Notes: generated by a model not told the origin, from the sequence alone. A stretch of DNA of 64,000 nucleotides from Naegleria gruberi (GCA_000004985.1 GG738846.1); one strand, 5' to 3'; shown: positions 1,814-64,000, numbered from the stretch's first letter. A program made the numbers and translations.

Positions 1814-4800
1814 ATGAGTAGCGAAGCATTGTGGAAGGAACTCATCCAACAATTATTCGCTATTGCAAGTGGTGAACAGTTGATTTCCGTGATCAACGTA
1901 CAACATGTTGTTATTGATAAGAAGAGAGGTAAAATTATGGAGGATAGAATTGTTTGCTTGACAACAAAAAAGAAGATGATTACTACCTCTAAAAAGAAGA
2001 AGGGATACACAATTCAAGTTTTAGTTATTAGACGTGATAAAGAAGGAATTTTCCACATTGAAAAATCCTATAAATTGAAGAGATTGGCTAAAATTGAAGG
2101 TTCCGAAGAAGGATCCGATATGGAATTTATTTTACATTTTACAAACCATGTAAAGCCATTCAAAATTATAAGCGATAACGTCGAACAAAAGAACATTTTT
2201 ATTTCTAAATTATTACAAGTCTGTAGAGAAAATTTTGGAACTGAACCAGTATTGGAAAACATTAATCTTGTTGAATTATCGGATTATATTGTAGAGGAAG
2301 AAGAAAATGATGAGGAAAATTTATTTAAAGATGAAATTGGAGATGTCTCTCAAAGAGATTTAGTCACTGAGGAAGAAGAAAAGATTATGAGAAAAGTGTT
2401 GGAACAGTTTAATGAAGATATGAGTGACGCAAAACAAGTATCATCCCAACTCAACCAAAGATTGGCTATTTATGAAAGAGAAAATATTCATGCAATCTTA
2501 CAAAAGCAAGATCAATGGGAAATGATTATTCAACAACTTGACAATACAGAAAATTTACTTGAAGATATGAACGATTGGTTAGAGAAATATAACAAGAAAT
2601 TGATGCTCATGCAAAAAGATATTGTTCAAATTGAATCTGAAAATAACAATATGGAACTTCAAGCCAGAAACTTGAAATGCCTCTCTGATGAACTGGACTC
2701 TTTAATTGTATGTTGTTTCATATTTCAAATATTTACTATTAATGTTGTCTTACTTAGAATACATTGGAATTTGCTGATAGTTATGATAAAAGTATCCAAA
2801 ATGATCCTTTTGATGGTAAATTAAATAAGATTAATGATGCTGTGGAAAAACTGCAATCATCTCTCAATAACAAATTACAAGATGGTATGGACGATATGGT
2901 AGCTGTAAAGTAGGTTTATTTCTCGTTGAAATTTGATAATTATTTTTAGGGAACGTGTAAAATATTTCCAAGAGTTGAGATTCAACTTTGTATATAGATT
3001 CAAAATGTTTATGAAGTCTTACTTTAAAAAACTTGCCTCTCAACTATTAAAACAAAGAGGAAAGAACTACAAATATTCCATAGATCTTAAAACTGTAAAT
3101 TATAATAGTTATCATAGAGATATGATTCAGGTAGGTTGAGTTGTACAATTTCATCTTTTTACCATTCAATAATTAGATCCACAAAGATTGCATTCACAAA
3201 GAATTATTAAAATATTCTATTCTCATGGAATGTGTACATTCCACACAAAATGCTGTAAAAGACCAACAATTATTCGAAGTACTTAAAGCCAAGTGGAAGG
3301 AATCTCAAAAGAGATTTTCACTCACTCTAATGAAGAAGGACAAAATGATGGATAAACCATTAGAAATGTTACAAGGAAAATATACAAAAGCAATGTCTAC
3401 CTTGTATCATAAGGAAATCCATGAATATATTCTCGATGTTAGATCTGTAATCAAGTCCAAAAAAGAAAACAAGGTCAGCAAAACTTTCTTGTTGGGTACA
3501 AAGAGTACACAATTAACAGAAAAAATTGTTAAAGATACAAAGCATACATCACTGAGAAAATCCATCAAAATTCCAAAATCAGTATCAGATTCAATCTCAA
3601 AGGCTACAATGATGGATGATGAATCTACACTAGGTACTGAAATTGATTTTTCAGATGAAGAAGAAGATTTTGATGATGAAATTATTGAATATGTAAAACC
3701 TCAACAGTCTGATATTTCATCCAGAGTTGACACTCTTTATGCTTACTGCTTGAACACTATTTGTAGCACAATGTTCCAAGAACAACAACATATTTCTAAA
3801 TTATTCTTAATGGATACCAGTTTGGAGGAAGTTCCATTTGTAACATTTGATGAACAGTACGAAAGTGAAGATGAAACTCAGAGCACAGAAGGAGATCAGA
3901 AAAAATCTCTTGATATTGTACCAGGAGCAGCAGAAACTAGTCAAAACTCTCTAAAATCAGAGGTTTATGTAATGATGGAAAAGATGTTCAAGGAAACCAA
4001 TGAAAGTATGGCAAAGATTACCAAATATGTTGAGTCTAATACTGACAAATTTTATTCTCTTTCTATGAGTTTAGCTGCTGAAAGACAATTCAGATACTAT
4101 AACGGAAAAAGTGTTTACATTTCAGAATATATTTTATATGTCAAGACACTCATTCAGCAGATTATCCACAAGTTTATTTCAAAACAAATAGAATCTATTG
4201 AGGAATATAAGTGCACCATCAAAAAGACACATGTGGTTCCTTATATTGCCAAGTTTTCCTACTTTAACGATAGATTTGAAAGTATCATGATGAACTTTTC
4301 AGATATGAGTACTGCTAGATCAAGTGCCACGACTGATTATTTAAAGATTATCAAAGCTATGTTTGATTCTTTGGAGAAACTTGCCAATACCAATGAAAAG
4401 CATGCTTCTGCATTTAGAATGAAGAACTACTCATATTTCTATCACTCCTTACTGAAGAGACCAAACTTGTGTCAAAATGAGTTGCTTGCAAAACAAGCTG
4501 ATATTGCCAAGAAGAGATTCGAAGATGCTTGCAGATTCTATATCCTCTGGATGATTAACTTTAGATTTGAGCAATTATTCCAATTTATTGATGGTTTGGA
4601 AGATTGTATTAAAACCACATCAAAGGAAGACATTATTTATCAAACTCAATTCTCCAAGTCTAAAGTTAAGGAATTAATCAAAAAGTATGATCAAACTGTT
4701 CTCCAAAAAGGAATTACGGACCTAATGAAACGTACGGATAAACATATTGGACAAAAGAATGTGGATGAGTCTACCTACAAAATTCCAAAAGCCATTGAGG

Positions 4801-13853: not shown

Positions 13854-16126
13854 TTATTCTACTAAAATGGTTGAAGAAACAACCTTATTATCAAGTAATT
13901 TTCTAACTTCCATATTGAATGGACGTTTTGCAAGAATATTCTGAACAGTTTGTCTCAAATTTGTAAAAATCTTCCACTCATTACAAGCATTATCATCTGG
14001 TAATTGAATGACAACATCAAAGACTGGATCGGCTTTCAATTGAAGTCTCATCTTTTCACCATCTTTTGTTGCGTTTCTATCACCTAATCAATTATTGAAA
14101 ATTAAAATTACTGCAATATTGTAAACTTACTCATAATTACACTTTCAACACCACCCAACAAGTCGCATAAAATTGGATTTTTGAGAATGGATTTCATATC
14201 ACCATGCGCACTACCACAAAGAACAACCCCTCTCTGTGCGATGGTTCTTGCAGTACTGACCTCATCCCTGGTTCCAATCTCATCAATTACAATGACTTCT
14301 GGTGTGTGATTCTGAACGGCTTGAATCATTACTTCTTGTTGTCTTCTAATGTCAGCTACTTGCATTCTTCTGGCCTTACCAATCGCCACATGAGGTACAT
14401 CTCCAAAACCACCAATCTCACAAGAGGTGTCAACTACGACAACTCTTCTTGATTCAGAAAGCGTCTTGGCAAAATCTCTGATAAAAGTCGTCTTTCCTGA
14501 ACCTGGTTTACCCAAAAGCAAAATGCTCTTCCCTTGTTCAATCAAGTCTGAGAATACTTTCGATCTTCCCATTACTGCCCTGCCTACTCTCAATGTGAGT
14601 CCAATAATTTTTTCACTTCTATTGAGCATGGCACTAATTCTATGTAAGGCGCCATCGATTCCAGCTCTGTTATCAGTTCCAAAGGATAGCTTACTGACAA
14701 CTTCATCAATGTCCTCCTGTTTAACAATAAATGAGTTATCAATGTGCGATTCCTTCTTGTGGTAGTAGAATAATTCATAGGGTCTTCCCTTATCCATGGC
14801 CACTTCAATTAAATTCATCACGTCCTCACCTGAAATTGTTGACAACTGTTCTTGAATCTTCTTTGGGAATAACTCCAAGAAACTGTAAATTTGATTAATA
14901 ATTGTGACATTGTAATCAGTTTGATGAGTTAGAATTGCAACATCTTGTTGAGCAGACTCCTGACCTGCTGTTGGAGATTTCTTAATTTGGAGTATGTCCA
15001 AAATGAAATTCCACAATTTTTTCACTTCAGAATCCACTTGAGCAAACACTTGTTTTGCCTCATCTTCCAAAGGAGGTGTCATGGCCTTACACAGCTGTAC
15101 CAGAGTTCTGACATCTCCAGAAGCATAATTCAACATTTCTTCAGTAAAAACTTTCTTTGCCCAACTATTTCTCATATGAAGATTCTTGCCCAAATCTTTG
15201 AAAGCATTTCCTGGAACGTTATAGAGCATACACAAATCATTGAATGAAATATTTCTTTGGGTTTGATGAAGAATTTGATAGAGAATTGAAGTGTCCACAA
15301 TTGAGGAAACACAAATATCAAAGTCCTTATATAGTCCACATAAATCATTCTCACAATTGTGAATAATTTTCAAAATGGTTTCGTCTTCAAGTATTTTCTT
15401 TACAGTTTCGGTGATGGTTGGATTTTTGAGTTTCATATCGAACAAGTATTGAGTGTTGTGAGCTGAAATCTGTACAAGAGTCAACACTCCATTAATTCCC
15501 AAATTAACACCTTCGCAATCGAATCCTACTAATTTGGTATTGAACTTGGACATGTCAGAGAGGAATTGCTGGGCAAGAGCTGGAGTATTGACAAGCACAA
15601 TATCGCTCTTATTGGCATTACCTACACTCACAACAGTGGATGAGCTGCCAGCTGTCAACTGAGAACTATTAGCAACAGAAGTAGAAGCAGAAGTAGGTCC
15701 ATTTGCTTTTTTAATTTGCTCTACCATGGAATTCAATTTAGTTCTAACATTTTTAATTGACCTTTTGCCTGTCTTATCAAAGGCAGCTGCCAATTGCAAG
15801 GTTGTTAATTGTTCCAACAAGTCGTAATCACTAGAAAATTGTTGATGCAAATTGGCCAAGACAAGGTTCGGAACTTGAACCATAAGAGTCATGGTATCTT
15901 GCTCTTCATTATAAGAGAACCATCTCTCACTCTCTCCACTAAATAATACATCATAGATGTATTGCCAATCGGGAAGGTCTTCGAATTGTGTCTGATGAGG
16001 TTCGAATGAGTAGCCATTCTCTAAATACTTTTCAAATATTTCACTCTTGGTTGGTTTTCTATTGCTGAGCGCACTGATGGAGCAGACACGGATGAGTTTA
16101 TCAAGATAATTGGTTGTGGTGGCCAT
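13854..16126 (-). CDS. Fusion protein with a DEDDy-type 3'-5' exonuclease domain followed by a SpoIIIAA/ycf45-like P-loop ATPase; 2 exons.
   Basis: Exons are 14131-16126 and 13854-14083. The intron is 14084-14130 (GTAAGT...TTAG, 47 nt), and the phase fits. The exonuclease block is VGFDCEGVNLGINGVLTLVQI...KIIHNCENDLCGLYKDF. The ATPase block is GKPGSGKTTFIRD...VVVDTSCEIGG...IVIDEIGTRDE...CGSAHGD. Confidence 0.6.
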
Positions 16127-24679: not shown

Positions 24680-27600
24680 TTATTCGTCTTTTTCTCTAAT
24701 GGTTGAGAGAGCAAACATACTCTGTTGAGATTTCATCACATCCTGTAACGATTGTTGAGTGGTGAGTATGTGTGAATAATTAACACTCATTAGGTGTTTT
24801 GGATTCATGAGATAGGTCTTGACTATTCCTTTGCCTTTAGCGTCAACCTCCCTCTCTTCAAATTCATATCCCAAATCGAAGACTCTCTCATAGGTCGAAC
24901 GAGAAATTTGAATAGTACCTGCAACTCCAGTGGATTCCATTCTTGAAGCCACATTGATGGCATCACCCCATAGGTCATAGGCAAACTTCTTGGAGCCAAT
25001 CACACCTGCCACAACTGATCCTGTGTTGATGCCAACTCTATACGAATGAATTTGATTAATAATGTTTCCATCACCTATTAAAACATACCTTATATTGATA
25101 TCTTCTGTTTCCACAACCTTATTCTTGTTATATTGATGAATGACTCCAAATGCATCGATGGCAAACTTTAAAACACGCTCTGGGTGATCAGATTGACTAT
25201 TGTGAAGACCACCAACTAGAAAGTAAGCATCTCCAATAGTCTTAATCTTTTCCAATTCATACTTCTCTGTCAATACATCAAATCCATTCACAATACTATT
25301 TAACATTTTCACAAGATCTGTTGGTTGCATCTTACTACTAATTCTTGTAAATCCAACCCTAAAATAGTCAATATAATGAATCAATTGGATGATTAAAATA
25401 CTACTTACATATCGCTAAAGAAACAAGTAATATCATCAAATTTCTCTGCAATAAAGGTTTCTCCAGCTTTTAAACGATTGGCTACCTTAATTGGTAATAT
25501 ATTCTTCAATAAATTTTCACTCTTCTTCTTTTCATCAGCTAGCAAGAGGGATTGCTTTTTTTCTTGTGTAATGTCTTTGAAAGTTATCAGAATCTTGGCA
25601 TCCTTTCCAAGCAACCGAATTGCATAAATGGTTATCTTGGCAGGGAACTTGGTATTGTTCTTTCTCATCATGTCAACTTCCAAGCTCTCCACAAGTTTTT
25701 GTTCGTTATTTTCATTCGATTGCTGCTCCTTTGATTGTGAAATGAGAGCATGGCACAATTGCTTTACCTGGGCTCTGAAGGGATTATCAAATAAATCAAG
25801 CATTGAAGTTCCCAAAATATCCAAACTCTTACTTCCAAACATTCTCAATCCAGACGAATTAAACAATTCAATTTCTCCATTTTCTTTACAAATCATTGTA
25901 CCTTCCACACTTGAATTGAAAACAACCTTCAAGCTAGAATATTCATCATTGGTTTCGTCCAGTGGGTGGGCAGTCTTTTTTCTCAAGAGAAATGGATAAT
26001 TAGTTTCCAACTTGTGGTGTAATGCAAACTCCCTTAATAATTCATTGTGATCAATAACGTCGATTGGTAGGTAATTTAACATGTTTCTGAATGAATGGTA
26101 CTGGCTCCAGAAATTTGAAAGCATGTAGCAAAATACTAAAACGGAAGATAATATAACAATCAAACCAATAATTGAAGAACTAATTGTAACAGAAAATACC
26201 GGAACAGAAGACTCTTTGACAAATTCCTTAATAAAAGCAGTATACTTTGCAATTAATGGTTGAGATAGACGAAGCAATAGATTGTTTCTCATGGCCAAAG
26301 TAAAAGGGTCCAATAGTGTACCATTTGAAATTACAGATTGTTGCAGAATATAATGTTTTCTTGAATCAATGACTAATTGTGGAGCGGTACTAGCAAAATC
26401 AGAGAATACAGTCTCCAATCCCTGGCAATAAAGCTTGAAGGTAGCATAAATGAAGGTAATATTGTTTGCTCTCATATATTCAGTGCAATTATCAACGCCA
26501 ACTGAAATAATCTTATCGACAGTTGGATATTTTCCAAGAAGAGGAACAAGAGACAACTCCTTAGATCCATAAATGAGTTTGCTCATGTAATCTGAGGCTG
26601 CTGCAATTCCATCGTTTACTCCAGCAGCCAACGAGTCGAATCTACTTCTCGCTTGCCACAATCTCAAATCACCAAACGATACTGTTCGTTTCAGTTTATA
26701 TCTCAATGGTGCAGTTGGAGAAGTGAATTGTTCAGCTCCAAAATATGTATAGAATTCTTGAGCACTGAAGGCAGATCTCTCAACATTCACACCTGCCTGA
26801 ATAGAAAGACGAACACGTGTCATGGTGTTAATAGCTTCTTGTCCATTGACATACGCCTCTGTAAACATTAAGGCAATTGTGGCACAGGTGGACACTACAA
26901 TTACAATGCAGCTGAAAATGACAAACAAATTTGGTTTGATCTGATCAATAGATATTATACGTGTGCTTCCTATGGCATCATTCTGAAGTCTGTTAGATAT
27001 ATTGTGGAAAATCTTTCCAATTATGTCCTTCTTGATTTGAGTTTCAAAAAGTTTAGCTAACTTTTTCATATTACTCAATTCTACCAACATTAAGGCAATG
27101 AACATTGCACTAACCAACACAAAGGCCGATAACATTACTGCTGTATAAATCATAAATTGATTAACACTTTGATCAATTACTGAGATTGTACTGTCCAAGT
27201 ACTTGGTGCAAAATCCTTCATAAGCTGTTGTAAAAACTCCCTTATTAGCCCACAAGTAATTAAAGTTAAAGTTTGGAAGTGGATTAAAGTATGAATCTTG
27301 GGAAGTAATATTCAATAATTTTTGCCTTTCAATTAAGGAAGAAGAATTCTCAACTGATAACAGCAATTCCAGTGGGAAATCATCAATAAGAAGTTGAGTA
27401 TATTTGATTAGAGAGTTGGTAATATCAACAATTGAGGCATTTCTTGTTTGATATGGACCAGAGTAGAAATGTGGATCTGATGCATCCTCAGTTGGAAAAT
27501 TAATCGAATAAATACTTGATGAATAGTCGGTATAAATGGCATCAGTAAAGACACCCTCTTGTCCAATCGAAACTAATCGTTTCAAATATTCTAAACTTGT

Positions 27601-30096
27601 TTCTAGTTTCTTTTTGTGATCTAAAATGTAAGCTGATTTTGAAATGGAAGGATAACCTTCTGTAAGAGGTGGAAATTCCACTTCCTGGAAATTAAATGTA
27701 TTAATCCAATTTTGACAAGCTCTAATATTTCTAATGATGGAAAATGGAAGAGTTCCTGGAAAGCAAACATGCTCAACGTAAGGAACGGTTGATTTAACCT
27801 GAAAGGAATAGAATACACTCAAAACAATCGAGGCCACAATACATGCAATGACAAAGAGGAAGTAAGAGAAGGATAAGATTTTGACAATTCCATTTGGTTT
27901 TGGATTGGCAATGGCATTCAAGAAGAGAATTTCCTTTTTGAGTTGTGGATTGTCAAAAGCATCTTCCATCTCTTCCAGTTTTTCTTGTTCTGCAGTGTCA
28001 ATATTGGAGCCTTCTTCAAAGAAGGCACTTGCAGTTTCTAATTTTTCATTTGGAACAATTCGATTGTTTCTCTTGGTTGGTGGAGCTCTACTGTGAGAAC
28101 CTCTCCGTTTCTTCTTCATTTCTTCTTCTTCAAGTGAATTGGCCTCTGCATAGAGAGAATCTGCCAATGGTTTGTTAAATTCAAAATTTTCAATAAAGTT
28201 TGCCTGAACTCTCAATACTGTCTTGTTGTGTTTGTAATTGAAAGACAAGTTCTTTAGCATGGATTTGCACTCACTTGTCAGATTATAAATGGTTCTATTG
28301 GTTTTCTTTAAAGATTCATAATTGATATGCTCATTTGCCATTTCCTTCCAGAAAACTTTGTGTAGAGCTAAAAGGTTGCTTTGAAGTTTTTCCAATTTTT
28401 GGATTTGGCAAGAGATTTCAAATAGGCCACTTTTTGAGAATGAATTCGATTCCACTTCCTTGATTCTTTCCTGAATGGCAAGCACTTCAAAAAAAGCTGG
28501 ATCACTTTTCATTGCCTTCCTCAGTAAACTTGTTGCCAGAACACTGGAATTTTGTTCTTCTGACCAAAAAGTTTGAACAAGCAATGATGAATAGATGAGA
28601 GAAGAGACATTTCGGAACATTTTGTGTTGAACCAGACCTTTCACAAAGCAAAATGCTATTATAGCATCATTCTTTCTCCGAAGGGAAAGTTTTAAGAATA
28701 AATTAAGATATTGAACAGATTTGGATTCGTCTAAATCTGAATAGACTACAGAGGCCATCTTCTCAATATAATTCAGCAATGCCAAGTCTGTTTCTGCACT
28801 TTCTTTGATTTCCATACTTGAAGGATGTGAATTGACAATAATAAAGCTTCTGATGGATCTCAATTTAACCCAAATCCATACGAATTGAACTAGAAATCCC
28901 AAAACGAAACCCAGTATCATTAAAGCAATCGTGAATCCAACCAAACCTCCACCAATCGCCGATTCATTGTTCGAATTGACCAGAGATGTAATGAGCGAAC
29001 CAACACTGGCAGCTAATCTTGCTCCATACACACCTTGAACAATAGCATTTTCGTAATGCGTAAAGAATGGAACATGTCTTAATTGAGTGATACAACACAA
29101 TCCAGAGATGAGTACATTTGCAATAGACGAAACATAGGAATATTCTTTTGGAATAACTAGCTCACAAATCAAGCCAATAATGTTCAATACACCAACAATA
29201 CTAAACATCAGGCTGGTCTCAGAGGTGAGAGGTATCTTACTCTGTGGATTTGAGTTTGAAGTAACAAACTCTGTCAGAGGATAGATGATGATCAAGGTAA
29301 ATAATGTACAAATAGACAGCACAATCATGATAGTATTCTCGCTATCCATGCATCCAATCAAATCAAATCTGTTGAGAGGATTTACTTCAACTGTTGAGGT
29401 TCCAAAAACAGTCTCCACAGTTATACTAATTTTCTGGAAATAGTTGCAATCAAGAAAGCCAACCAACAAATGACTTCCAATCAGATAAGAACCCTTGATG
29501 AACCAGCTCAAATACCACAAGGATAACTTTAAAAGTTTGAAATGATTGTTTGGTTTAATGGTCAAGTAGTAAGCCAAACAGAAGAGCACGCACGTAACAC
29601 AAATTACAGACATGAAGAAGGCAGATAAACCAATAGCTCCATAATAAGGTATCATGTTAAAGAGTAGAGTGGTTGGAAAATTCAAAACCTCAAAAACATA
29701 ACTTCCCTCATAACCCCAACGATGATTTCTAAGGGTTGGCACAAACATTTGACTCCACAACATGAGTAAATAATAGACCAAATATAATAGAAAGTGCTTC
29801 CATCCTGACAATGGAGCTCTTTCCTGCAGACTTGTCATCATTGAAAGAACATTTTCACGAGCGTGTGTAATGAATGATGAGGATATTGTCGATGACTCTG
29901 TAGAGCTCTGAATGGACTCTGAAACCTCATCATAAAACTTTTGGGAAGGAAGAAAATTGTTAGCACCAATGCCTGTATCAGAAGGTCTTCTCAGAGAGTG
30001 AAGTGAGTCTGAACTGTCACTTCCCCTCATCTTTGGAGCCAAGCTATAGGGTTCTAAGGAAATGATGGGAGTGCTTGATGATGATGCAATGGCCAT
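24680..30096 (-). CDS. Large polytopic membrane adenylyl/guanylyl cyclase with a PAS-like domain and a single class III cyclase catalytic domain; 2 exons.
   Basis: Exons are 25409-30096 and 24680-25358. The intron is 25359-25408 (GTAAGTAG...TTTTAG, 50 nt) and rejoins the cyclase fold across ...FDDITCFFSD(M)|VGFTRISS.... The catalytic motifs are KIKTIGDAYFLVGG...IRYVLIGDGNI...GINTGSVVAGVIGSKKFAYDLWGDAINVASRMESTG. There are more than 10 hydrophobic segments in the first 400 aa and four more later. A PAS-like block (VEGTMICKENGEIELFNSSGLRMFGS...) precedes the catalytic domain. Confidence 0.75.
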
Positions 30097-30983
30097 CTAT
30101 TATGCTATTGTTTTTGTTTTGTTGTTTTGGAATATTATTGATGATGGCGAATCACTATGGATTTAGCGTCTTCTTATAAAAAAGTTGAATTCCTCTTTAA
30201 GTGCAAGTGTCCTCAAAGTCCTTATTAAATGTCGTACTATACATAAATACTTTTCGTTGATGTATTTGGAATGTGCGAGATCGAGAAATTTCATTTTTTG
30301 GAAATAAGGTACGTAAGGCAAATAGTTGCCGTCCTTAATAAGTTTAAGGCCAGCGAAAACAAAGGTGAATATTCATTTCACGTTAAAAACGAATGTAAAA
30401 ATTGGTGTTGCCAACATCTAAATTCGGAAACAAAACTCACATTGATTACACTAACTTATGCATTTAGAACCATCTTGTTTAATAACAATACTGTCCATAC
30501 TTGAAGATGAATGTTTTTCAATTCGAGTTTTTTTCATTTTTTCAACAATCATGTATATTTCAACAATAAAACAAACACTTTCAATGCGAGCATTGTTAAA
30601 TCCGATGATAATTGAGAAACAACAATTTTTTGGAAAACTATTTCCAAAATCTCCAAGATCATTTTCCTCACCTATACTTGTTAGAAAATCCCGTAAGTTT
30701 TTCCATAAACACTTTAGAACAAAAGGGTTACTATTTTCCTCATCTCGCAACACCAGAATTTTTGGCACAGATAATAGAGTGACAATTACCTTAATCCATG
30801 CTAACTTAAATATTTTCTCATCCAAAGCAACTCCCCTACCACAGTATTTAAAAAAAATGGTAGGAAAGAGTGATTATAGACAATACACTCTCTTGTTGAA
30901 TGTGAAAGACGTTAATACTTTACCTAAAGGTCTAAAGAGTAAACTTGTCAAGAGTTTGGAAAATGTAAGTAAATAGAAGTTTT

Positions 30984-31922
30984 TTGCCAACAACATGGCA
31001 GAATTCTTTTGTTGGATTACATGGACGGGTACTTAGAGATTATGATGACGAGAGAAAATGCTACATTATTAAAATTGTAATGGGAAATCCATATGGAAAA
31101 GTATTGGATTGGGAACTTTTGGAAGAAACTATAAAAAATAGTTTCGAAAACTATTACGAGGAATTGCATAAGGAAGAAATTGGGCCACCAACATCATCCA
31201 AATCTGTGTATTTACGTCCTCTGTTTGTTGGAGACACTTCAATAAAGGCAAGAAGAACAGGTCAGAGCTATGCCTCCTCAGGAAAAGAGAAGCATATCCA
31301 AGCTAGTAATGAATTGGCTTCAAGAAGAACCTTAAGTGAGTTCAGCTCATCAACAATTCCTCTCCATCGTTCTCAATTATCAGAATCCGATTTGATATTC
31401 AGAGCAGATGAAGAAGAACTTCTCCAAAATCTCTCAAAGCCAACACATCTACCTTCACAACAAGTCCAATTTCCATTTTACCAACCAGAAATTGATCCAT
31501 CAGTCTCTCAATTACCGGTGTACTCTCCTCAATTTTGTTCGTTCCCATTCTACCAAAAAATGATGTATCCTTATATTCCTTTTCAACAATTTACAACTCC
31601 AACCCTAAAGAGAGCCACAGGTGAGTTGCAAATAGGTCAATTCAAGCTTGACAAAAGCACGCCACAACATTGGTCCCCTGAGCACATTAAACTAGTATTG
31701 AAATATGGTGTTGGCTTGAATGAGAAGCAAGTTGCGAACTTGGAAATAAGTGGGCATGAGTTGGAAAGTCTAGTGGTTCTATTGATGGCCTGTAAAGGAG
31801 ATGGTAAGGAAAAAATAGAGGCTACAAGAGATGTGTTGTTAAGTTTAGATATTGATGGATTATCCAAGTCTGTGGCATTGTCCATTTGTTGTTGGTGTTT
31901 TAAGGAGCTATTGTGCAAATAA
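30984..31922 (+). CDS. Hypothetical protein, possibly with a SAM-like C-terminal region. It may be extended 5' by joining ORF 30458-30976 through a 37-nt intron.
   Basis: A 312-aa ORF. The upstream ORF ends ...SLEN, directly before GTAAGTAAATAG...CATGGCAG (30971-31007). Removing those 37 nt places it in frame with N-S-F-V-G-L-H-G-R.... The micro-intron is unverified. Confidence 0.4.
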   Translation: MPTTWQNSFVGLHGRVLRDYDDERKCYIIKIVMGNPYGKVLDWELLEETIKNSFENYYEELHKEEIGPPTSSKSVYLRPLFVGDTSIKARRTGQSYASSGKEKHIQASNELASRRTLSEFSSSTIPLHRSQLSESDLIFRADEEELLQNLSKPTHLPSQQVQFPFYQPEIDPSVSQLPVYSPQFCSFPFYQKMMYPYIPFQQFTTPTLKRATGELQIGQFKLDKSTPQHWSPEHIKLVLKYGVGLNEKQVANLEISGHELESLVVLLMACKGDGKEKIEATRDVLLSLDIDGLSKSVALSICCWCFKELLCK

Positions 31923-47643: not shown

Positions 47644-48762
47644 TTACTTTCTAACACCAACTGGATGAGGTGCTTTGGCTGTGTAGGATTCATCCAAATA
47701 TTTGACTTCCTCAGTGGTGAGTTCAATATCCAAAGCAGCAATAGACGATTCAATATTCGATACTTTTGTGGCACCAACAATTGGACTGGTAACTCCTGGT
47801 TTCTTCAATAGCCAAGCAATAGCAATTTGAGCTGGTGAGACATTCTTCTTATTAGCCAATTCTGAAACTCTTCTCAAATTTTCCTTATCACCTTCAGTCA
47901 GGGTTTCTTGGAATTGTTTTTGAATGAAATCTGAATTTGCTCTCTTGGATTTCTGATCCTCATCATCATCATTGCTTGTTTTCTCAGAGTTGACAAATTC
48001 GTGAGCTCTTGCCAAAATTCCCTTAGCAAGTGGACTATATGGAGTTAAGGAAACTTTCTGATCCAAACACATTGGAATCATGTCTCTTTCCTCTTCTCTA
48101 TACATTAAATGATAGAGATTTTGCATGGAAACAAACTTGGTCAATCCCTTCTTATCAGCATAATGTTGAGCTTTAGCAAATTGCCAAGCAAACATTAAAG
48201 AGGCACCAATATATCTGATCTTTCCAGATTTTACCAAATCATGTAAAGTTTCCATGGTTTCTTCAATAGGAGTGTCTGGATCCCAACGATGAATAATATA
48301 TAAATCAATGTCTGTTTACAATATTCAGTCAACTGAACTTTGCAATTTTCAAAAATACTTACAATCAGTTCCCAATCTTTCCAATGATTCCTCAACAGCA
48401 TGCATAATATGCTTTCTCGACAATCCATGAGTATTCACCTTCTTATCATCACTCAACGGTAGGTACCTTTGTTCTCCACTCTTGTCAACCGGACCAAAAA
48501 CCTTAGTAGCAATAACAACTTCCTCTCTCGGAATGTTATTCTCCCTAATGAATTTACCCAAAATTCTCTCACTTTCACCATTCGAATAAAGGTTGGCAGT
48601 GTCGAAGAAGTTAATACCCAACTCCCAGGCCTTCTTGAGAATGATCATGGATTCTGGTTCTTCCAAAACCCAATCAAACCATTTTGGTGAGCCGAAACTC
48701 ATGCATCCGAGACAGATTTTGGAGACTTTCAAGCCAGTGTTACCCAAATTTTCATACTTCAT
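47644..48762 (-). CDS. Aldo-keto reductase (AKR, Kv-beta/aryl-alcohol dehydrogenase-like); 2 exons.
   Basis: Exons are 48365-48762 and 47644-48313. The intron is 48314-48364 (GTAAGTAT...AAACAG, 51 nt). The spliced junction gives ...LERLGTD|YIDLYIIHRWDPDTPIEETMETLHDLVKSGKIRYIGAS, a classic AKR motif. The N-terminus GLKVSKICLGCMSFG...FFDTANLYSNGESE is also typical. Confidence 0.8.
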
Positions 48763-62151: not shown

Positions 62152-64000
62152 TTACAATTGCTCTAGTTTTTCTCTTTCTTGTAATTTCTTTAGCTTTTCT
62201 AATAGATTAATGGTTGGTAAATCTGCCTTTCCATTTTGAATTGTTCTATCCAAGAATTCATTCAACAATCCACATGCTTCTTCATATTTCTTGTCAAAGA
62301 ATAAATTACAAGCAGCTCCATAGGATTGCCAAAGATTTCTCTTCTTCTTTTCCTCCAATTCATACATCCATTCTAATATTTGATTAATTTCGAGTGAATT
62401 TTAAAATATACTTACCATCTTCTTTAACTTCCATAAAATCTCCAAATTCATAAACATTCACTTCAGTAATTTGCTTTGAGGACAAAGGAGTATAACTTTC
62501 TGGAATGTTGTTACCATACTCTGGTGACTTTAAGAATGCCCAATTCTTGTTAAGCGACTTGTCTAGCTCAGGAATTCCATATTGTTGTTCCGTTAAGAAA
62601 TTAAGTGTATCGATAAATCTGTGTTGATAGAAATTATGAGTTTTTGCCTTAATTTCTTCAGAGACTACAATTTCAATGTTCAAATTAACAGCAAGATCCA
62701 ACATGGAAAGTATATTTCTTTGGAAGCTACCAACAATTGTAAAATTCTTAAAATCATTAGTACCCAAGTTACCACAACAAACAGCTTGGGAGAGAACTGC
62801 AACTCTAAAAGTTTGTGCCTTATCGGTCGCTTCTGGATTAATGGCCTTCTTTAATGGTAATAAACCATTAAGCTTTCTAACAATAGCATAAGCAAATGTT
62901 ATAGATTTCTTTTCTGGGGCTGCTGTGTCAATATTAGAATTGAATGAAATAGTGATAGTCTCATTATCAAAATTACCAACAGAACCTCCATGTATCTTAC
63001 TCATATCATATACATATTTGAAAATTTCACTTAAAACAGTTACAGTTTCAGAGTAAGAATTGTTGGCAATACATGCGCTCATTCCTTCAATATGTAAACA
63101 AGCAAAACCAACTTTTCTTTTATCCAAATGAAGGGCAAATCTTGCTAAAATATCAATTGGTTGTTGAGTTTGAGATTGTTTTTTCGTAGTACTTCCAATG
63201 CTTGAAAAACTGCTAGAAGCGTCTTCCTTAACTAGTTTTGCAATAGAGTAAGCACTTTTAGATTGAGGTTGGGAATCTTTTGATCTTCTACTTTTATCAA
63301 CTTCTTCACCTCCATCAATCTTTGAAATCAAGTGACTTGGAATAAAGCTATTTCAAAAATTGTTTAGTCATGTTGACACTTAGTGATAACTTACCATCTA
63401 TAAAGCTTAATCCTGTCAACCATCCCCTTAAAGTGTCCTTGAAGAATGACAACTTCTCTGAACAATGAATTTCTAAATTCTAATCCTTCCAATTTCATTT
63501 CAGAAACTTCACTAAAATTGAAAATCAACTCATAGAATGGTTGAATAATTTTAAATGAAATATAAACACCGAAGATTATACTAATAATGATAATCAAAAG
63601 ACTTATACCAAGAGCAATTCCTACAGCCATGAAAATTGTTGTTAAATAGTTTGATGTTGGTTCAGCAAAGACAAGCAGCCAATCCACATTTTCTTCGGTA
63701 CATAGCCGATACATTGAGAGGTAGTAACCCTCAACTTCTAACATAATCATTTTGTTTCTTTCAATTACTTGCAAGTCTGGATATAAAGAGTATAAACTCT
63801 TTCCAATAAGATTAGTTCCCTTATCACGGACTGTGATTGCTGTAAGTCTGGTTTCTTGTTGTTGTTCATCCCAAACAGCTACAGAAACTTCTGGATCATA
63901 ATCTATATAGAGAGTAAGTAGATCAAATGCCTCAATAAATACTTACTAGATATCAAGTAATTAGTGCTCACTTCAATAGTAAAGGCAATAGCTCCATCAA
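62152..64000 (-). CDS. Receptor-type cyclase-like protein (sensor region, TM helix, HAMP-like linker, degenerate class III cyclase homology domain, short C-terminal tail). At least 4 exons; the 5' end lies beyond the window.
   Basis: Exons are 63947-64000 (partial), 63395-63902, 62416-63347 and 62152-62372. Introns are 63903-63946, 63348-63394 and 62373-62415, all GTAAGT..AG, 43-47 nt, with consistent phases. The TM helix is TIFMAVGIALGISLLIIIISIIFGVYISF. The degenerate cyclase domain FACLHIEGMS...KIHGGSVGNFDNETITISF...FRVAVLSQAVCCGNLGTNDFKNFTIVGSFQRNILSMLDLAVNLNIEIVVSEE mirrors F.DI.GFT...GD.Y....G...RIG...G.V..GV.G...Y...G..VN.ASRME but lacks the metal-binding Asp residues. Confidence 0.55.

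What the first reader, a model, noticed from the sequence alone, without database searches (positions are those of the whole stretch)
24680..30096. Large polytopic membrane nucleotidyl cyclase with a PAS-like domain and a single catalytic domain split by a 50-nt intron
The ~1790-aa protein has a large multi-helix membrane region (more than 10 N-terminal hydrophobic segments, then 4 more interspersed with large loops), a PAS-like block, and one class III cyclase domain with canonical metal and substrate motifs (FSDMVGFT, KIKTIGDAYF, WGDAINVASRMES). The ORF track splits it into two ORFs, which only rejoin when the GTAAGTAG...TTTTAG intron at 25359-25408 is removed, so an automated ORF caller would miss the catalytic domain's first beta-strand. 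A single-catalytic-domain cyclase on a transporter-like or sensor-like membrane scaffold implies obligate dimerisation and possibly ligand or voltage regulation. I cannot assign the architecture to a characterised subfamily from sequence alone. Substrate specificity (ATP versus GTP) cannot be read with confidence.
Basis: partly seen in the sequence, partly recalled or inferred. Interest (0 to 1): 0.55.

Follow-up and report, generated by a model that had tools for sequence, protein, structure and literature searches.

The report
Naegleria membrane PAS adenylyl cyclase gene
This is one three-exon Naegleria gruberi gene for a 1771-residue, roughly 12-helix membrane protein ending in a PAS domain and a single adenylyl-cyclase domain; public annotation splits it into two "predicted proteins", and it belongs to a large, uncharacterised Naegleria family of receptor-like cyclases.

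Summary
On the minus strand, 30096..24680 encodes one gene. Removing the 50-nt GTAAGT...TTTTAG intron (25359-25408) rejoins FFSDM|VGFT. There is no RNA evidence, but the comparative evidence is strong:
- A paralog has an unrelated 43-nt intron at the same site and lacks intron 2.
- In a close environmental relative both introns diverge about five times faster than the exons, and the exons show 21 synonymous changes against 1 non-synonymous.
- Eleven paralogs have no insertion at the intron-2 site.

Public N. gruberi annotation splits the gene into a 1563-aa model and a 216-aa model. The N. gruberi paralog and the closest N. lovaniensis relative are split the same way.

All catalytic residues are present, with Lys/Asp at the specificity positions. 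This points to a homodimeric adenylyl cyclase.

About 120 related protein clusters exist, nearly all of those checked from Naegleria. Receptor function is inferred, not shown.

The parts
24680..30096 (-). Whole coding region of the gene, from ATG at 30096 to the TAA stop at 24680-24682. Three exons, 1771 codons after splicing.
   Evidence: An in-frame TAG immediately precedes the ATG.
25409..30096 (-). Exon 1: residues 1-1562 plus the first two bases of Met1563. It carries the scaffold, the PAS domain, the linker, and the first cyclase beta-strand with metal-binding Asp1562.
   Evidence: 60% identical and colinear with paralog P0002 along its whole length.
25359..25408 (-). Intron 1: 50 nt, GTAAGTAG...TTGAC...TTTTAG, phase 2.
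   Evidence: The paralog locus L002 has an unrelated 43-nt GTAAGT...TTGTAG intron at the same codon position. Identity to the close relative L001 is 84%, against 96-99% in the exons, with the splice sites kept.
25089..25358 (-). Exon 2: 270 nt, residues 1563-1652 plus two bases of Arg1653. It carries Lys1602 (substrate-specifying) and Asp1606 (metal-binding).
   Evidence: Only 9 mismatches to the paralog copy, against about 23% divergence in the flanking exons.
25038..25088 (-). Intron 2: 51 nt, GTATGT...TTAAT...TATAG, phase 2, in frame and without stop codons.
   Evidence: Absent from paralog L002 and from 11 family members. In L001 it is 45 nt, with 4 mismatches plus a 6-nt deletion.
24680..25037 (-). 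Exon 3: the rest of the cyclase domain (Asp1674, Asn1681, Arg1685, Lys1722), a 40-residue tail and the stop codon.
28828..29793 (-). N-terminal membrane bundle, residues about 102-423, about 8 TM helices. A conserved Cys-flanked beta-hairpin (223-238) sits in a predicted outside loop.
   Evidence: Hydropathy. AlphaFold model m49a5fea1f1a4, mean pLDDT 80.8.
28102..28797 (-). Cytosolic helical-repeat region, residues 434-665. It contains the Pfam TPR_TmcB match (residues 563-661, window 28114-28410). A disordered acidic/basic linker follows (666-733).
   Evidence: PF25474 E=1.6e-8, 34.9 bits against a cut-off of 27. 28 of 30 family members match. Helices in the model.
27064..27891 (-). TM9 (736-768), helical-bundle ectodomain 1 (769-976) and TM10 (977-1011). 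N-glycosylation sequons at 886, 917, 929. Cys778, Cys794 and Cys963 are conserved with the paralog; Cys778 and Cys963 are conserved across the family.
   Evidence: (model mc619eee07b1a, pLDDT 88.1, pTM 0.82)
26104..26958 (-). TM11 (1047-1083), helical-bundle ectodomain 2 (1084-1301) and TM12 (1302-1331). Sequons at 1203, 1212, 1258. Cys1204 and Cys1224 are conserved with the paralog; Cys1224 is conserved across the family.
25564..25932 (-). PAS domain, residues about 1389-1511. It is preceded by a family-conserved juxtamembrane motif (LRxMLNYxP, about residues 1336-1344).
   Evidence: PAS_9 E=5.4e-15. Family consensus. Weak FixL match, with the haem-binding His not aligned.
25450..25575 (-). 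Linker from PAS to cyclase, residues about 1508-1549: the 'DIT' motif, a charged helix and LLKNILPIKVANRLKAGE. It aligns with the helical segment that precedes AC9 C2.
   Evidence: Alignment to AC9 residues 1028-1045. HNOBA matches in 4 paralogs. Family consensus. Calling it a cyclase-transducer-type element is an inference from established knowledge of class IIIa cyclases.
24803..25449 (-). Class III cyclase catalytic domain, residues 1550-1731, spread over all three exons.
   Evidence: PF00211 E=3.2e-54. PDB sequence matches to AC9, AC8, AC5 and mycobacterial Cya/Rv1625c. Catalytic residues mapped.

Best explanation
Shown or strongly supported: 30096..24680(-) is a single Naegleria gruberi gene with two short spliceosomal introns (25359-25408 and 25038-25088). 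It encodes a 1771-aa integral membrane protein. In order, the protein has a cytosolic Ser-rich N-terminus, a bundle of about 8 TM helices, a cytosolic TmcB-type TPR region, and four more TM helices carrying two extracellular helical-bundle domains. These are followed by a cytosolic PAS domain, a helical linker and one class IIIa cyclase domain. The cyclase domain carries every canonical catalytic residue: Asp1562 and Asp1606 (metal), Arg1653 (phosphate), Lys1602 and Asp1674 (adenine), Asn1681 and Arg1685 (transition state). The Lys/Asp pair is the one that makes class III enzymes adenylyl cyclases.

Inferred: class III active sites form at the interface between two catalytic domains, and this chain has only one, so the enzyme must work as a homodimer that makes cAMP. 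The most likely control path starts at the two helical-bundle ectodomains. They are built like bacterial NIT, PilJ and 4HB ligand-binding domains, so they probably bind an extracellular ligand. The signal would then pass through TM12 and the conserved juxtamembrane motif to the PAS domain. From there it would run along the coiled-coil linker, setting the register of the two catalytic domains. The PAS domain may add an intracellular input. The gene is one member of a large, Naegleria-expanded family of such receptor-type cyclases.
For: Gene structure:
- The junctions restore FFSDM|VGFT and INIR|VGINTG.
- The spliced product aligns without gaps to AC9 C1/C2 and to 11 paralogs.
- The paralog locus has an intron at the same position with unrelated sequence and no intron 2.
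- Against relative L001, introns show 12 mismatches in 95 aligned nt plus a 6-nt deletion, and exons show 22 in 767 (Fisher p=1e-4). The exon changes are 21 synonymous and 1 non-synonymous in 256 codons.
- Other 43-51-nt GTAAGT...YAG candidate introns occur in the window.

Domains:
- Pfam matches.
- Across 30 family members, 28 match TPR_TmcB, 27 match PAS_9 and 24 match Guanylate_cyc.

Cyclase type and specificity:
- The best PDB sequence matches are class IIIa enzymes: AC9, AC8, AC5, Cya/Rv1625c and NPR-A.
- Lys and Asp occupy the specificity positions in this protein and in all 11 aligned paralogs.
- The Lys/Asp versus Glu/Cys rule is stated in PMC7384201.

Topology and fold:
- AlphaFold models have pLDDT 80.8 and 88.1, the second with pTM 0.82.
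- Sequons and conserved Cys fall in the two large loops, and Lys/Arg-rich segments fall on the predicted cytosolic sides.

Context:
- Membrane anchors of class IIIa cyclases can act as receptors (PMC4821796, PMC11606603).
Against: - There is no transcript evidence for either intron.
- Intron 2 is in frame and without stops in both strains (51 and 45 nt), so a retained-intron isoform is not excluded.
- The PAS cofactor or ligand is unknown. The only PDB match is FixL at E=0.008, and the haem-binding His does not align.
- The function of the 8-TM bundle and the TPR region is unknown.
- No enzymatic data exist for any family member that I could find.
Confidence: 0.72

Rival explanations
1. The membrane scaffold is not the signal input. 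The enzyme is regulated from inside the cell through its PAS domain (a small ligand, redox state or gas). The 12-TM part serves as an anchor or localisation device, for example targeting to a membrane domain or the flagellum, or it has its own transport or channel function coupled to cAMP production.
For: - The PAS domain is conserved in 27 of 30 family members and sits directly upstream of the linker.
- Its nearest solved relative is a haem-PAS sensor, weakly.
- A TmcB-related protein is listed among Chlamydomonas ciliary proteins (PMC11244166).
- The cyclase core is 50-57% identical to cyanobacterial cyclases, some of which also carry PAS domains.
Against: - The ectodomains are among the best-conserved parts between paralogs, with long invariant runs, conserved Cys and sequons. 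This argues for a specific extracellular function.
- Their best structural matches are bacterial ligand-binding domains.
- No transporter or channel fold ranks near the top.
Confidence: 0.2
2. The public annotation is right and these are two separate genes. One encodes a 1563-aa membrane PAS protein that ends at ...FFSDM. The other encodes an independent 216-aa cyclase-like protein.
For: Public models P0001 and XP_002682791.1 are annotated this way. No transcript data were examined here.
Against: - Neither product would have a complete active site.
- The 'stop' after FFSDM is the TAA inside a consensus GTAAGT donor.
- The same break occurs at the same codon in the paralog, and splitting at this point recurs across the family.
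- Many paralogs have intact scaffold-PAS-cyclase models.
- The 216-aa model includes a 17-residue insert that no paralog has.
Confidence: 0.03
3. It is a guanylyl cyclase or a dual-specificity cyclase rather than an adenylyl cyclase.
For: Pfam does not separate the two activities. Specificity residues are not an absolute predictor, since specificity is partly determined during catalysis (PMC7384201).
Against: Lys1602 and Asp1674 occupy the positions that are Glu and Cys/Ser in guanylyl cyclases. The same pair is present in all 11 aligned paralogs.
Confidence: 0.05

Closest known systems
Naegleria scaffold-PAS-cyclase paralogs with intact public models, e.g. N. lovaniensis C9374_003576 (1709 aa), N. 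fowleri FDP41_011611 (1711 aa) and FDP41_001886 (1672 aa), N. gruberi XP_002671565.1
   Same: Colinear architecture: TM bundle, TPR_TmcB, 4 TM helices with two ectodomains, PAS, cyclase. 24-31% identity over the scaffold, a near-identical cyclase consensus, and the Lys/Asp pair.
   Different: They are different paralogs. This gene and its 60%-identical paralog P0002 form their own pair. The closest N. lovaniensis relative is only 42% identical. None of these proteins is experimentally characterised.
Mycobacterial Rv1625c/Cya (class IIIa homodimeric membrane adenylyl cyclase, PDB 1yk9, 4p2f, 7yz9)
   Same: One catalytic domain per chain with all catalytic residues and the Lys/Asp pair, so activity depends on a homodimer. 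A helical linker joins membrane domain and catalytic domain. Sequence match E about 1e-50.
   Different: Rv1625c has a compact 6-TM anchor, with no PAS, no TPR region and no large ectodomains.
Mammalian membrane adenylyl cyclases AC1-AC9
   Same: Best-scoring solved relatives of the catalytic domain (AC9, E=3.7e-70 summed over C1 and C2). The linker aligns to the helix before C2. About 12 TM helices in total.
   Different: The mammalian enzymes are pseudo-heterodimers with two catalytic domains in one chain, arranged 6TM-C1-6TM-C2, and are regulated by G proteins. This protein has one catalytic domain and an 8+4 TM layout with large ectodomains.
Dictyostelium TmcB (tiny macrocysts protein B) family, Pfam PF25474
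   Same: The cytosolic helical-repeat region matches TPR_TmcB above Pfam's cut-off, here and in 28 of 30 family members. TmcB is reported to regulate cAMP signalling during sexual development (PMC8516963, PMC12750705; original work Muramoto et al. 2005, PMID 15817229, not read here).
   Different: Whether TmcB shares the TM bundle and the ectodomains, and whether it lacks a cyclase domain, could not be tested. No TmcB sequence or AlphaFold database library was available.
Bacterial helical-bundle sensor domains (NIT domain of NasR, PilJ, 4HB_MCP of Tar/Tsr/PcaY, NarX/NarQ, TorS)
   Different: Sequence identity is only 4-16% and there is no Pfam match. Here two bundles lie in tandem in one chain, separated by a TM hairpin. 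Homology is unproven, because helical bundles arise convergently.
Receptor-type single-domain cyclases of other protists (trypanosomatid receptor adenylyl cyclases, Dictyostelium ACG)
   Same: Concept: an extracellular sensor, a membrane span and a single class III catalytic domain that must dimerise, in a lineage-specific multigene expansion. This comparison rests on my own knowledge; ACG and the trypanosome cyclases are mentioned in PMC9928731.
   Different: Those enzymes have one or two TM helices and different ectodomain folds, with no PAS and no TPR_TmcB scaffold.

Membership tests
Class III nucleotidyl cyclase (Pfam PF00211) | Catalytic-domain profile match above the curated cut-off | tested here: met
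   183.7 bits against a cut-off of 21.9, E=3.2e-54, profile positions 3-182 of 183
Class III nucleotidyl cyclase (Pfam PF00211) | Two metal-binding Asp, a phosphate-binding Arg, and the transition-state Asn and Arg | tested here: met
   Asp1562, Asp1606, Arg1653, Asn1681 and Arg1685 align with the AC9 C1/C2 residues and are conserved in paralogs
Class III nucleotidyl cyclase (Pfam PF00211) | Cyclase activity | not testable with these tools
   Needs an enzyme assay
Adenylyl (not guanylyl) cyclase | Lys and Asp (or Thr) at the two base-specifying positions, where guanylyl cyclases have Glu and Cys/Ser (PMC7384201) | tested here: met
   Lys1602 in EKIKTIGD and Asp1674 in FAYDLWGD
Homodimeric class IIIa cyclase (Rv1625c type) | A single catalytic domain per chain carrying the full residue set. 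Nearest relatives are class IIIa enzymes, and a helical linker precedes the domain. | tested here: met
   One PF00211 match. Top PDB matches are AC9, AC8, AC5, Cya/Rv1625c and NPR-A. The linker aligns to the AC9 pre-C2 helix. Dimerisation itself was not tested.
Mammalian-type pseudo-heterodimeric membrane adenylyl cyclase | Two catalytic domains (C1 and C2) in one chain, each after a 6-TM block | tested here: not met
   Only one cyclase domain, with an 8+4 TM layout
Receptor guanylyl cyclase (NPR/GC-C/retGC type) | ANF_receptor ectodomain, a single TM helix and a kinase-homology domain | tested here: not met
   No PF01094, PF07714 or PF00069 match. The specificity residues are Lys/Asp.
PAS domain (PF13426 PAS_9) | Profile match above the cut-off | tested here: met
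   56 bits against a cut-off of 27, E=5.4e-15, residues 1398-1511
Haem-PAS (FixL type) or LOV | Proximal His in the F-helix (FixL), or the Cys of the NCRFLQ motif (LOV) | tested here: not met
   In the FixL alignment the His position holds a non-His residue. No conserved His or LOV motif appears in the family consensus.
TmcB family (PF25474 TPR_TmcB) | TPR_TmcB profile match above the cut-off | tested here: met
   34.9 bits against a cut-off of 27. 28 of 30 paralogs match, best E=1.1e-18.
TmcB family (PF25474 TPR_TmcB) | Full-length colinearity with Dictyostelium TmcB (membrane parts) | not testable with these tools
   No TmcB sequence was reachable and the AlphaFold database libraries were unavailable. 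A metagenomic TPR_TmcB protein (P0114) is colinear over the TM bundle, TPR region and TM9, hhalign E=2.4e-47, but its organism is unknown.
Bacterial 4HB/NIT/PilJ-type ligand-binding domain | Four-helix-bundle sensor fold between two TM helices, plus a sequence-profile match | tested here: inconclusive
Spliceosomal intron (both introns) | GT...AG boundaries with a donor consensus and a branch-like YTRAY. Removal restores the frame and the homology. | tested here: met
Spliceosomal intron (both introns) | Comparative signature: faster divergence than the exons, indels tolerated, presence or absence varying among paralogs | tested here: met
Spliceosomal intron (both introns) | Spliced transcript observed | not testable with these tools
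   No RNA-seq access.

The most novel reading that the evidence does not exclude
The Naegleria family may be a large repertoire of chemoreceptor-like adenylyl cyclases. In this reading, tandem bacterial-style four-helix-bundle ectodomains on a TmcB-type scaffold convert extracellular ligands directly into cAMP. The fusion would then also act as a 'Rosetta stone' for the TmcB family. That family is genetically linked to cAMP signalling in Dictyostelium sexual development, and a TmcB-related protein is listed among Chlamydomonas ciliary proteins. Its biochemical role is not described in the papers found here. The fusion would suggest that TmcB-type proteins are receptors or regulators that work with class III cyclases.
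Probability: 0.3. Interest if true: 0.65.

Novelty: new variant of a known kind. Interest (0 to 1): 0.42.

Why it matters
- Annotation: the reference annotation of this gene is wrong in a way that hides its function. Neither public model has a complete active site. The same error recurs in the N. gruberi paralog and in the closest N. lovaniensis relative, so counts and domain inventories of Naegleria cyclases are affected.
- Biology: the corrected protein defines a membrane scaffold for a class III cyclase that none of my literature searches found described. It has about 8 TM helices, a TmcB-type TPR region, two helical-bundle ectodomains and a PAS domain. The scaffold is expanded to roughly 120 clusters at 50% identity (fragments included), nearly all of those checked from Naegleria, a genus that includes the pathogen N. 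fowleri.
- Possible receptor role: if the ectodomains bind ligands, this is a large and untouched receptor family for environmental sensing in these amoebae.
- TmcB link: the fusion gives a testable biochemical hypothesis for TmcB proteins.
- Caveat: single-domain receptor cyclases, PAS-cyclase fusions and the large Naegleria cyclase complement are all known in outline. This is an interesting variant rather than a new principle.

Tried and rejected
- The look-up of encoding contigs found no record for P0002 or P0001. The environmental contigs L001 and L002 were used instead.
- The search for homologous proteins with a 7-sequence scaffold alignment returned only P0001 and P0002. That search was wasted and no TmcB sequences were reached.
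- The AlphaFold database fold libraries were unavailable, so structural comparison with Dictyostelium TmcB was not possible.
- Internal duplication of the two TM-ectodomain-TM halves: BLASTP was negative at E=0.1. hhalign between family profiles was weak (probability 32%, E=5e-4) although the aligned positions are topologically equivalent. This is inconclusive.
- Foldseek of the ectodomain module against the PDB gave nothing significant. The best hit was a chemoreceptor array at E=0.056.
- Haem-PAS or LOV assignment was rejected because the key His or Cys is absent.
- The 1584-aa ORF at 40157-44911 was checked as a possible paralog. It is a BRCA2 homolog.
- Literature searches found no description of this architecture or of a TmcB-cyclase fusion. 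The N. gruberi genome paper is not in the held library.
- A bacterial promoter/terminator scan of the 3' flank was irrelevant for a eukaryote.

Full report
**Source and setting**

The window is AT-rich (about 33% GC). It carries ordinary eukaryotic genes, including BRCA2, RNase II, Sec3 and a protein kinase. The 1563-aa ORF is 100% identical to a 'predicted protein [Naegleria gruberi]' (P0001), so this is N. gruberi nuclear DNA. Several other 43-51-nt GTAAGT/GTATGT...YAG segments join long ORFs elsewhere in the window. Short introns of this style therefore appear common in this stretch of the genome.

**Checking the observation**

Two minus-strand ORFs exist: 25405..30096 (1563 aa, ending ...DDITCFFSDM*) and 24680..25384. 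Read on the minus strand, 25408..25359 is GTAAGTAG...TTGACTATTTTAG, 50 nt. Removing it joins GAT AT|G GTT GGA, giving FFSDM|VGFT and one open frame.

It is in frame and has no stop codon, so it does not break the ORF. It does insert 17 residues into the strand ...INIR|VGINTG.... With both introns removed the protein is 1771 aa.

Pfam finds Guanylate_cyc (E=3.2e-54, residues 1550-1731), PAS_9 (E=5.4e-15, 1398-1511) and TPR_TmcB (PF25474, E=1.6e-8, 563-661).

**Evidence that both segments are introns**

No transcript data were available, so the evidence is comparative.
- The spliced cyclase domain aligns without a gap across both junctions to AC9 C1 and C2 and to 11 family members with intact cyclase models. 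The unspliced reading adds a 17-residue insert that none of them has.
- The paralog P0002 (60% identical, colinear over 1560 residues) ends at the same ...CFFSDM. A metagenomic contig carrying that paralog (L002) has a 43-nt GTAAGT...TTGTAG intron at the same codon position, with unrelated sequence. After its removal the frame runs through a complete cyclase domain. L002 has no intron 2, and its coding sequence there reads INIRVGINTG, exactly my predicted junction.
- A contig from a very close relative of this gene (L001, same metagenome) keeps both introns and their splice sites. Intron 1 is 84% identical. Intron 2 has 4 mismatches plus a 6-nt deletion. The exons are 96-99% identical (22 mismatches in 767 nt; Fisher p=1e-4). 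The exon differences are 21 synonymous and 1 non-synonymous in 256 codons.

The three exons are therefore under strong purifying selection in the spliced frame, and the two intervening segments are not.

**Public annotation**

The gene is split in the reference annotation. P0001 (1563 aa) and XP_002682791.1/NAEGRDRAFT_61737 (216 aa) lie on the same 1,001,995-nt contig. The 216-aa model starts at the internal Met of MQPTDLVKM and translates intron 2.

The N. gruberi paralog is split the same way, into P0002 and P0162 on one 238,573-nt contig. So is the closest N. lovaniensis relative, into C9374_012435 and C9374_012436, which have consecutive locus tags on one contig. A Willaertia magna model starts at MVGFT.

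The catalytic residues are divided among the exons. Asp1562 is in exon 1. Lys1602, Asp1606 and most of Arg1653 are in exon 2. Asp1674, Asn1681, Arg1685 and Lys1722 are in exon 3. Neither public model could be an active enzyme.

**What the protein is**

An exhaustive HMMER search with residues 131-1330 found 120 representative clusters at E<=1e-3, of which 91 were at E<=1e-10. I looked up 20 of these clusters. Fourteen carry Naegleria names (N. gruberi, N. lovaniensis, N. fowleri). The exceptions were one weak chytrid hit, one bacterial cluster, and four unnamed or metagenomic sequences.

Many members are 1500-1800 aa and carry scaffold, PAS and cyclase. Several are already annotated 'Adenylate and Guanylate cyclase catalytic domain containing protein'. 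Of 30 members scanned, 28 match TPR_TmcB, 27 match PAS_9 and 24 match Guanylate_cyc. This gene is thus one paralog of a lineage-expanded family. A metagenomic TPR_TmcB protein of unknown origin (P0114) is colinear over the TM bundle, TPR region and TM9 (hhalign E=2.4e-47).

**Anatomy**

Two AlphaFold models were built from family alignments.
- Residues 131-1330: mean pLDDT 80.8.
- Residues 725-1345: mean pLDDT 88.1, pTM 0.82.

Combined with hydropathy they give this layout:
- About 8 N-terminal TM helices, with a Cys-flanked beta-hairpin in one outside loop.
- A cytosolic helical-repeat (TPR) region, residues 434-665.
- A disordered charged linker.
- TM9, ectodomain 1, TM10.
- A short Lys-rich cytosolic connector.
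- TM11, ectodomain 2, TM12.

The PAS and cyclase domains must be cytosolic, which fixes the orientation. All N-glycosylation sequons in the TM9-TM12 module, and its conserved Cys, fall in the two large loops. The total is therefore about 12 TM helices, not more than 14.

**Enzymology by inference**

The best solved sequence relatives are class IIIa enzymes: AC9, AC8, AC5, mycobacterial Cya/Rv1625c and NPR-A. All canonical catalytic residues are present in the single domain.

The base-specifying pair is Lys1602/Asp1674, as in adenylyl cyclases. Guanylyl cyclases have Glu and Cys/Ser at these positions (PMC7384201). All 11 aligned paralogs share the Lys/Asp pair.

Class III active sites form at a dimer interface, so one domain per chain implies a homodimer. 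The PAS domain ends in a conserved 'DIT' motif, followed by a charged helix and LLKNILPIKVANRLK. This segment aligns to the helix preceding AC9 C2, and in four paralogs it hits HNOBA. That fits a parallel coiled-coil transducer.

The PAS cofactor is unknown. FixL is the only PDB match (E=0.008), and its haem-binding His is not conserved here.

**Most likely mechanism**

I favour a homodimeric receptor-type adenylyl cyclase. Ligand binding at the helical-bundle ectodomains would be transmitted through TM12 and the conserved LRxMLNYxP juxtamembrane motif to the PAS domain. It would then pass through the coiled-coil linker to the catalytic dimer. The PAS domain could supply a second, intracellular input.

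The gene structure, the domain set and the catalytic residues are shown. Dimerisation and cAMP specificity follow from established class III rules. The receptor role of the ectodomains is inference from fold and conservation. Precedent exists for class IIIa membrane anchors acting as receptors (PMC4821796, PMC11606603).

The main rival is that regulation is purely intracellular through PAS and the membrane part only anchors or localises the enzyme. The two-gene reading and the guanylyl cyclase reading are poorly supported.

**Comparison with known systems**

- It works like Rv1625c-type homodimeric class IIIa cyclases and like protist receptor cyclases.
- It is not a mammalian-type pseudo-heterodimer, because it has only one catalytic domain.
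- It is not a receptor guanylyl cyclase, because it has no ANF_receptor or kinase-homology domain and carries the Lys/Asp pair.
- It matches the Pfam TPR_TmcB family. TmcB is reported to regulate cAMP signalling during Dictyostelium sexual development (PMC8516963, PMC12750705, both citing Muramoto et al. 2005). A TmcB-related protein is listed among Chlamydomonas ciliary proteins (PMC11244166).
- Whether the membrane parts are shared with TmcB could not be tested.

**Novelty and verdict**

It is best classed as a new variant of a known kind. The known kind is a receptor-like, homodimeric PAS-adenylyl cyclase. The new element is a scaffold that my literature searches did not find described, in a family that exists in databases but is uncharacterised and repeatedly mis-annotated.

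A specialist would find the scaffold and the annotation error useful rather than startling, because Naegleria's large cyclase complement is known (PMC9928731). Interest is 0.42. The most novel reading still open is a chemoreceptor-like cyclase repertoire that also explains TmcB function. I give it a probability of about 0.3.

Noticed in passing
window 25089-25358 (exon 2) compared with L002:1234-1503: Exon 2 has only 9 mismatches in 270 nt (3.3%) to the paralog copy. The last 150 nt of exon 1 have 35 mismatches (23%), and exon 3 starts diverging 4 nt after the intron-2 site. Third-codon-position identity is about 0.9 in exon 2 against about 0.45 in the flanks. This looks like a recent gene-conversion tract bounded by the two intron sites. 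The paralog lacks intron 2.
   Followed up: partly
window 25038-25088 and L001:463-507: Intron 2 is a multiple of three and has no stop codon in both strains (51 nt and 45 nt). The 6-nt deletion keeps the frame. A retained-intron isoform with a 15-17-residue insert in a core beta-strand is therefore not excluded, although chance explains this easily.
   Followed up: partly
window 63348-63394(-), 62373-62415(-), 48312-48362(-), 14084-14130(-), 2708-2757(+), 30965-31001(+): Other short (37-51 nt) GTAAGT/GTATGT...YAG segments join long same-strand ORFs. They are probable introns in neighbouring genes, and those genes' public models may be split or truncated in the same way.
   Followed up: no
window 40157-44911 (+): A 1584-aa ORF encodes a BRCA2 homolog, with BRCA-2_helical, OB1 and OB3 matches. 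Candidate in-ORF introns at 44299-44414 and 44540-44610 were flagged by the pattern scan.
   Followed up: no
cyclase domain, window 24803-25449 (-): The catalytic domain is 50-57% identical to many cyanobacterial class III cyclases (fused to response-regulator, HNOBA-type or PAS domains) in the BLASTP identity column. The animal cyclases listed score 31-40% in the same column. The direction and age of any transfer were not examined.
   Followed up: no
family members P0011, P0015, P0022, P0025, P0036, P0091, P0105, P0069, P0032: Many public models of paralogs end abruptly at a few recurring points in the cyclase domain...CFFSDM...IKTIGDAYFA(A/V)G...GVIGxKK.... This suggests several conserved intron positions at which gene callers truncate family members systematically.
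   Followed up: partly
P0123 (Phlyctochytrium planicorne KAJ3104360.1, 2156 aa): A chytrid protein gives a weak match (E=7e-4) to the N-terminal TM bundle only and has no Pfam domains. It may be a distant relative of the bundle outside Heterolobosea.
   Followed up: partly
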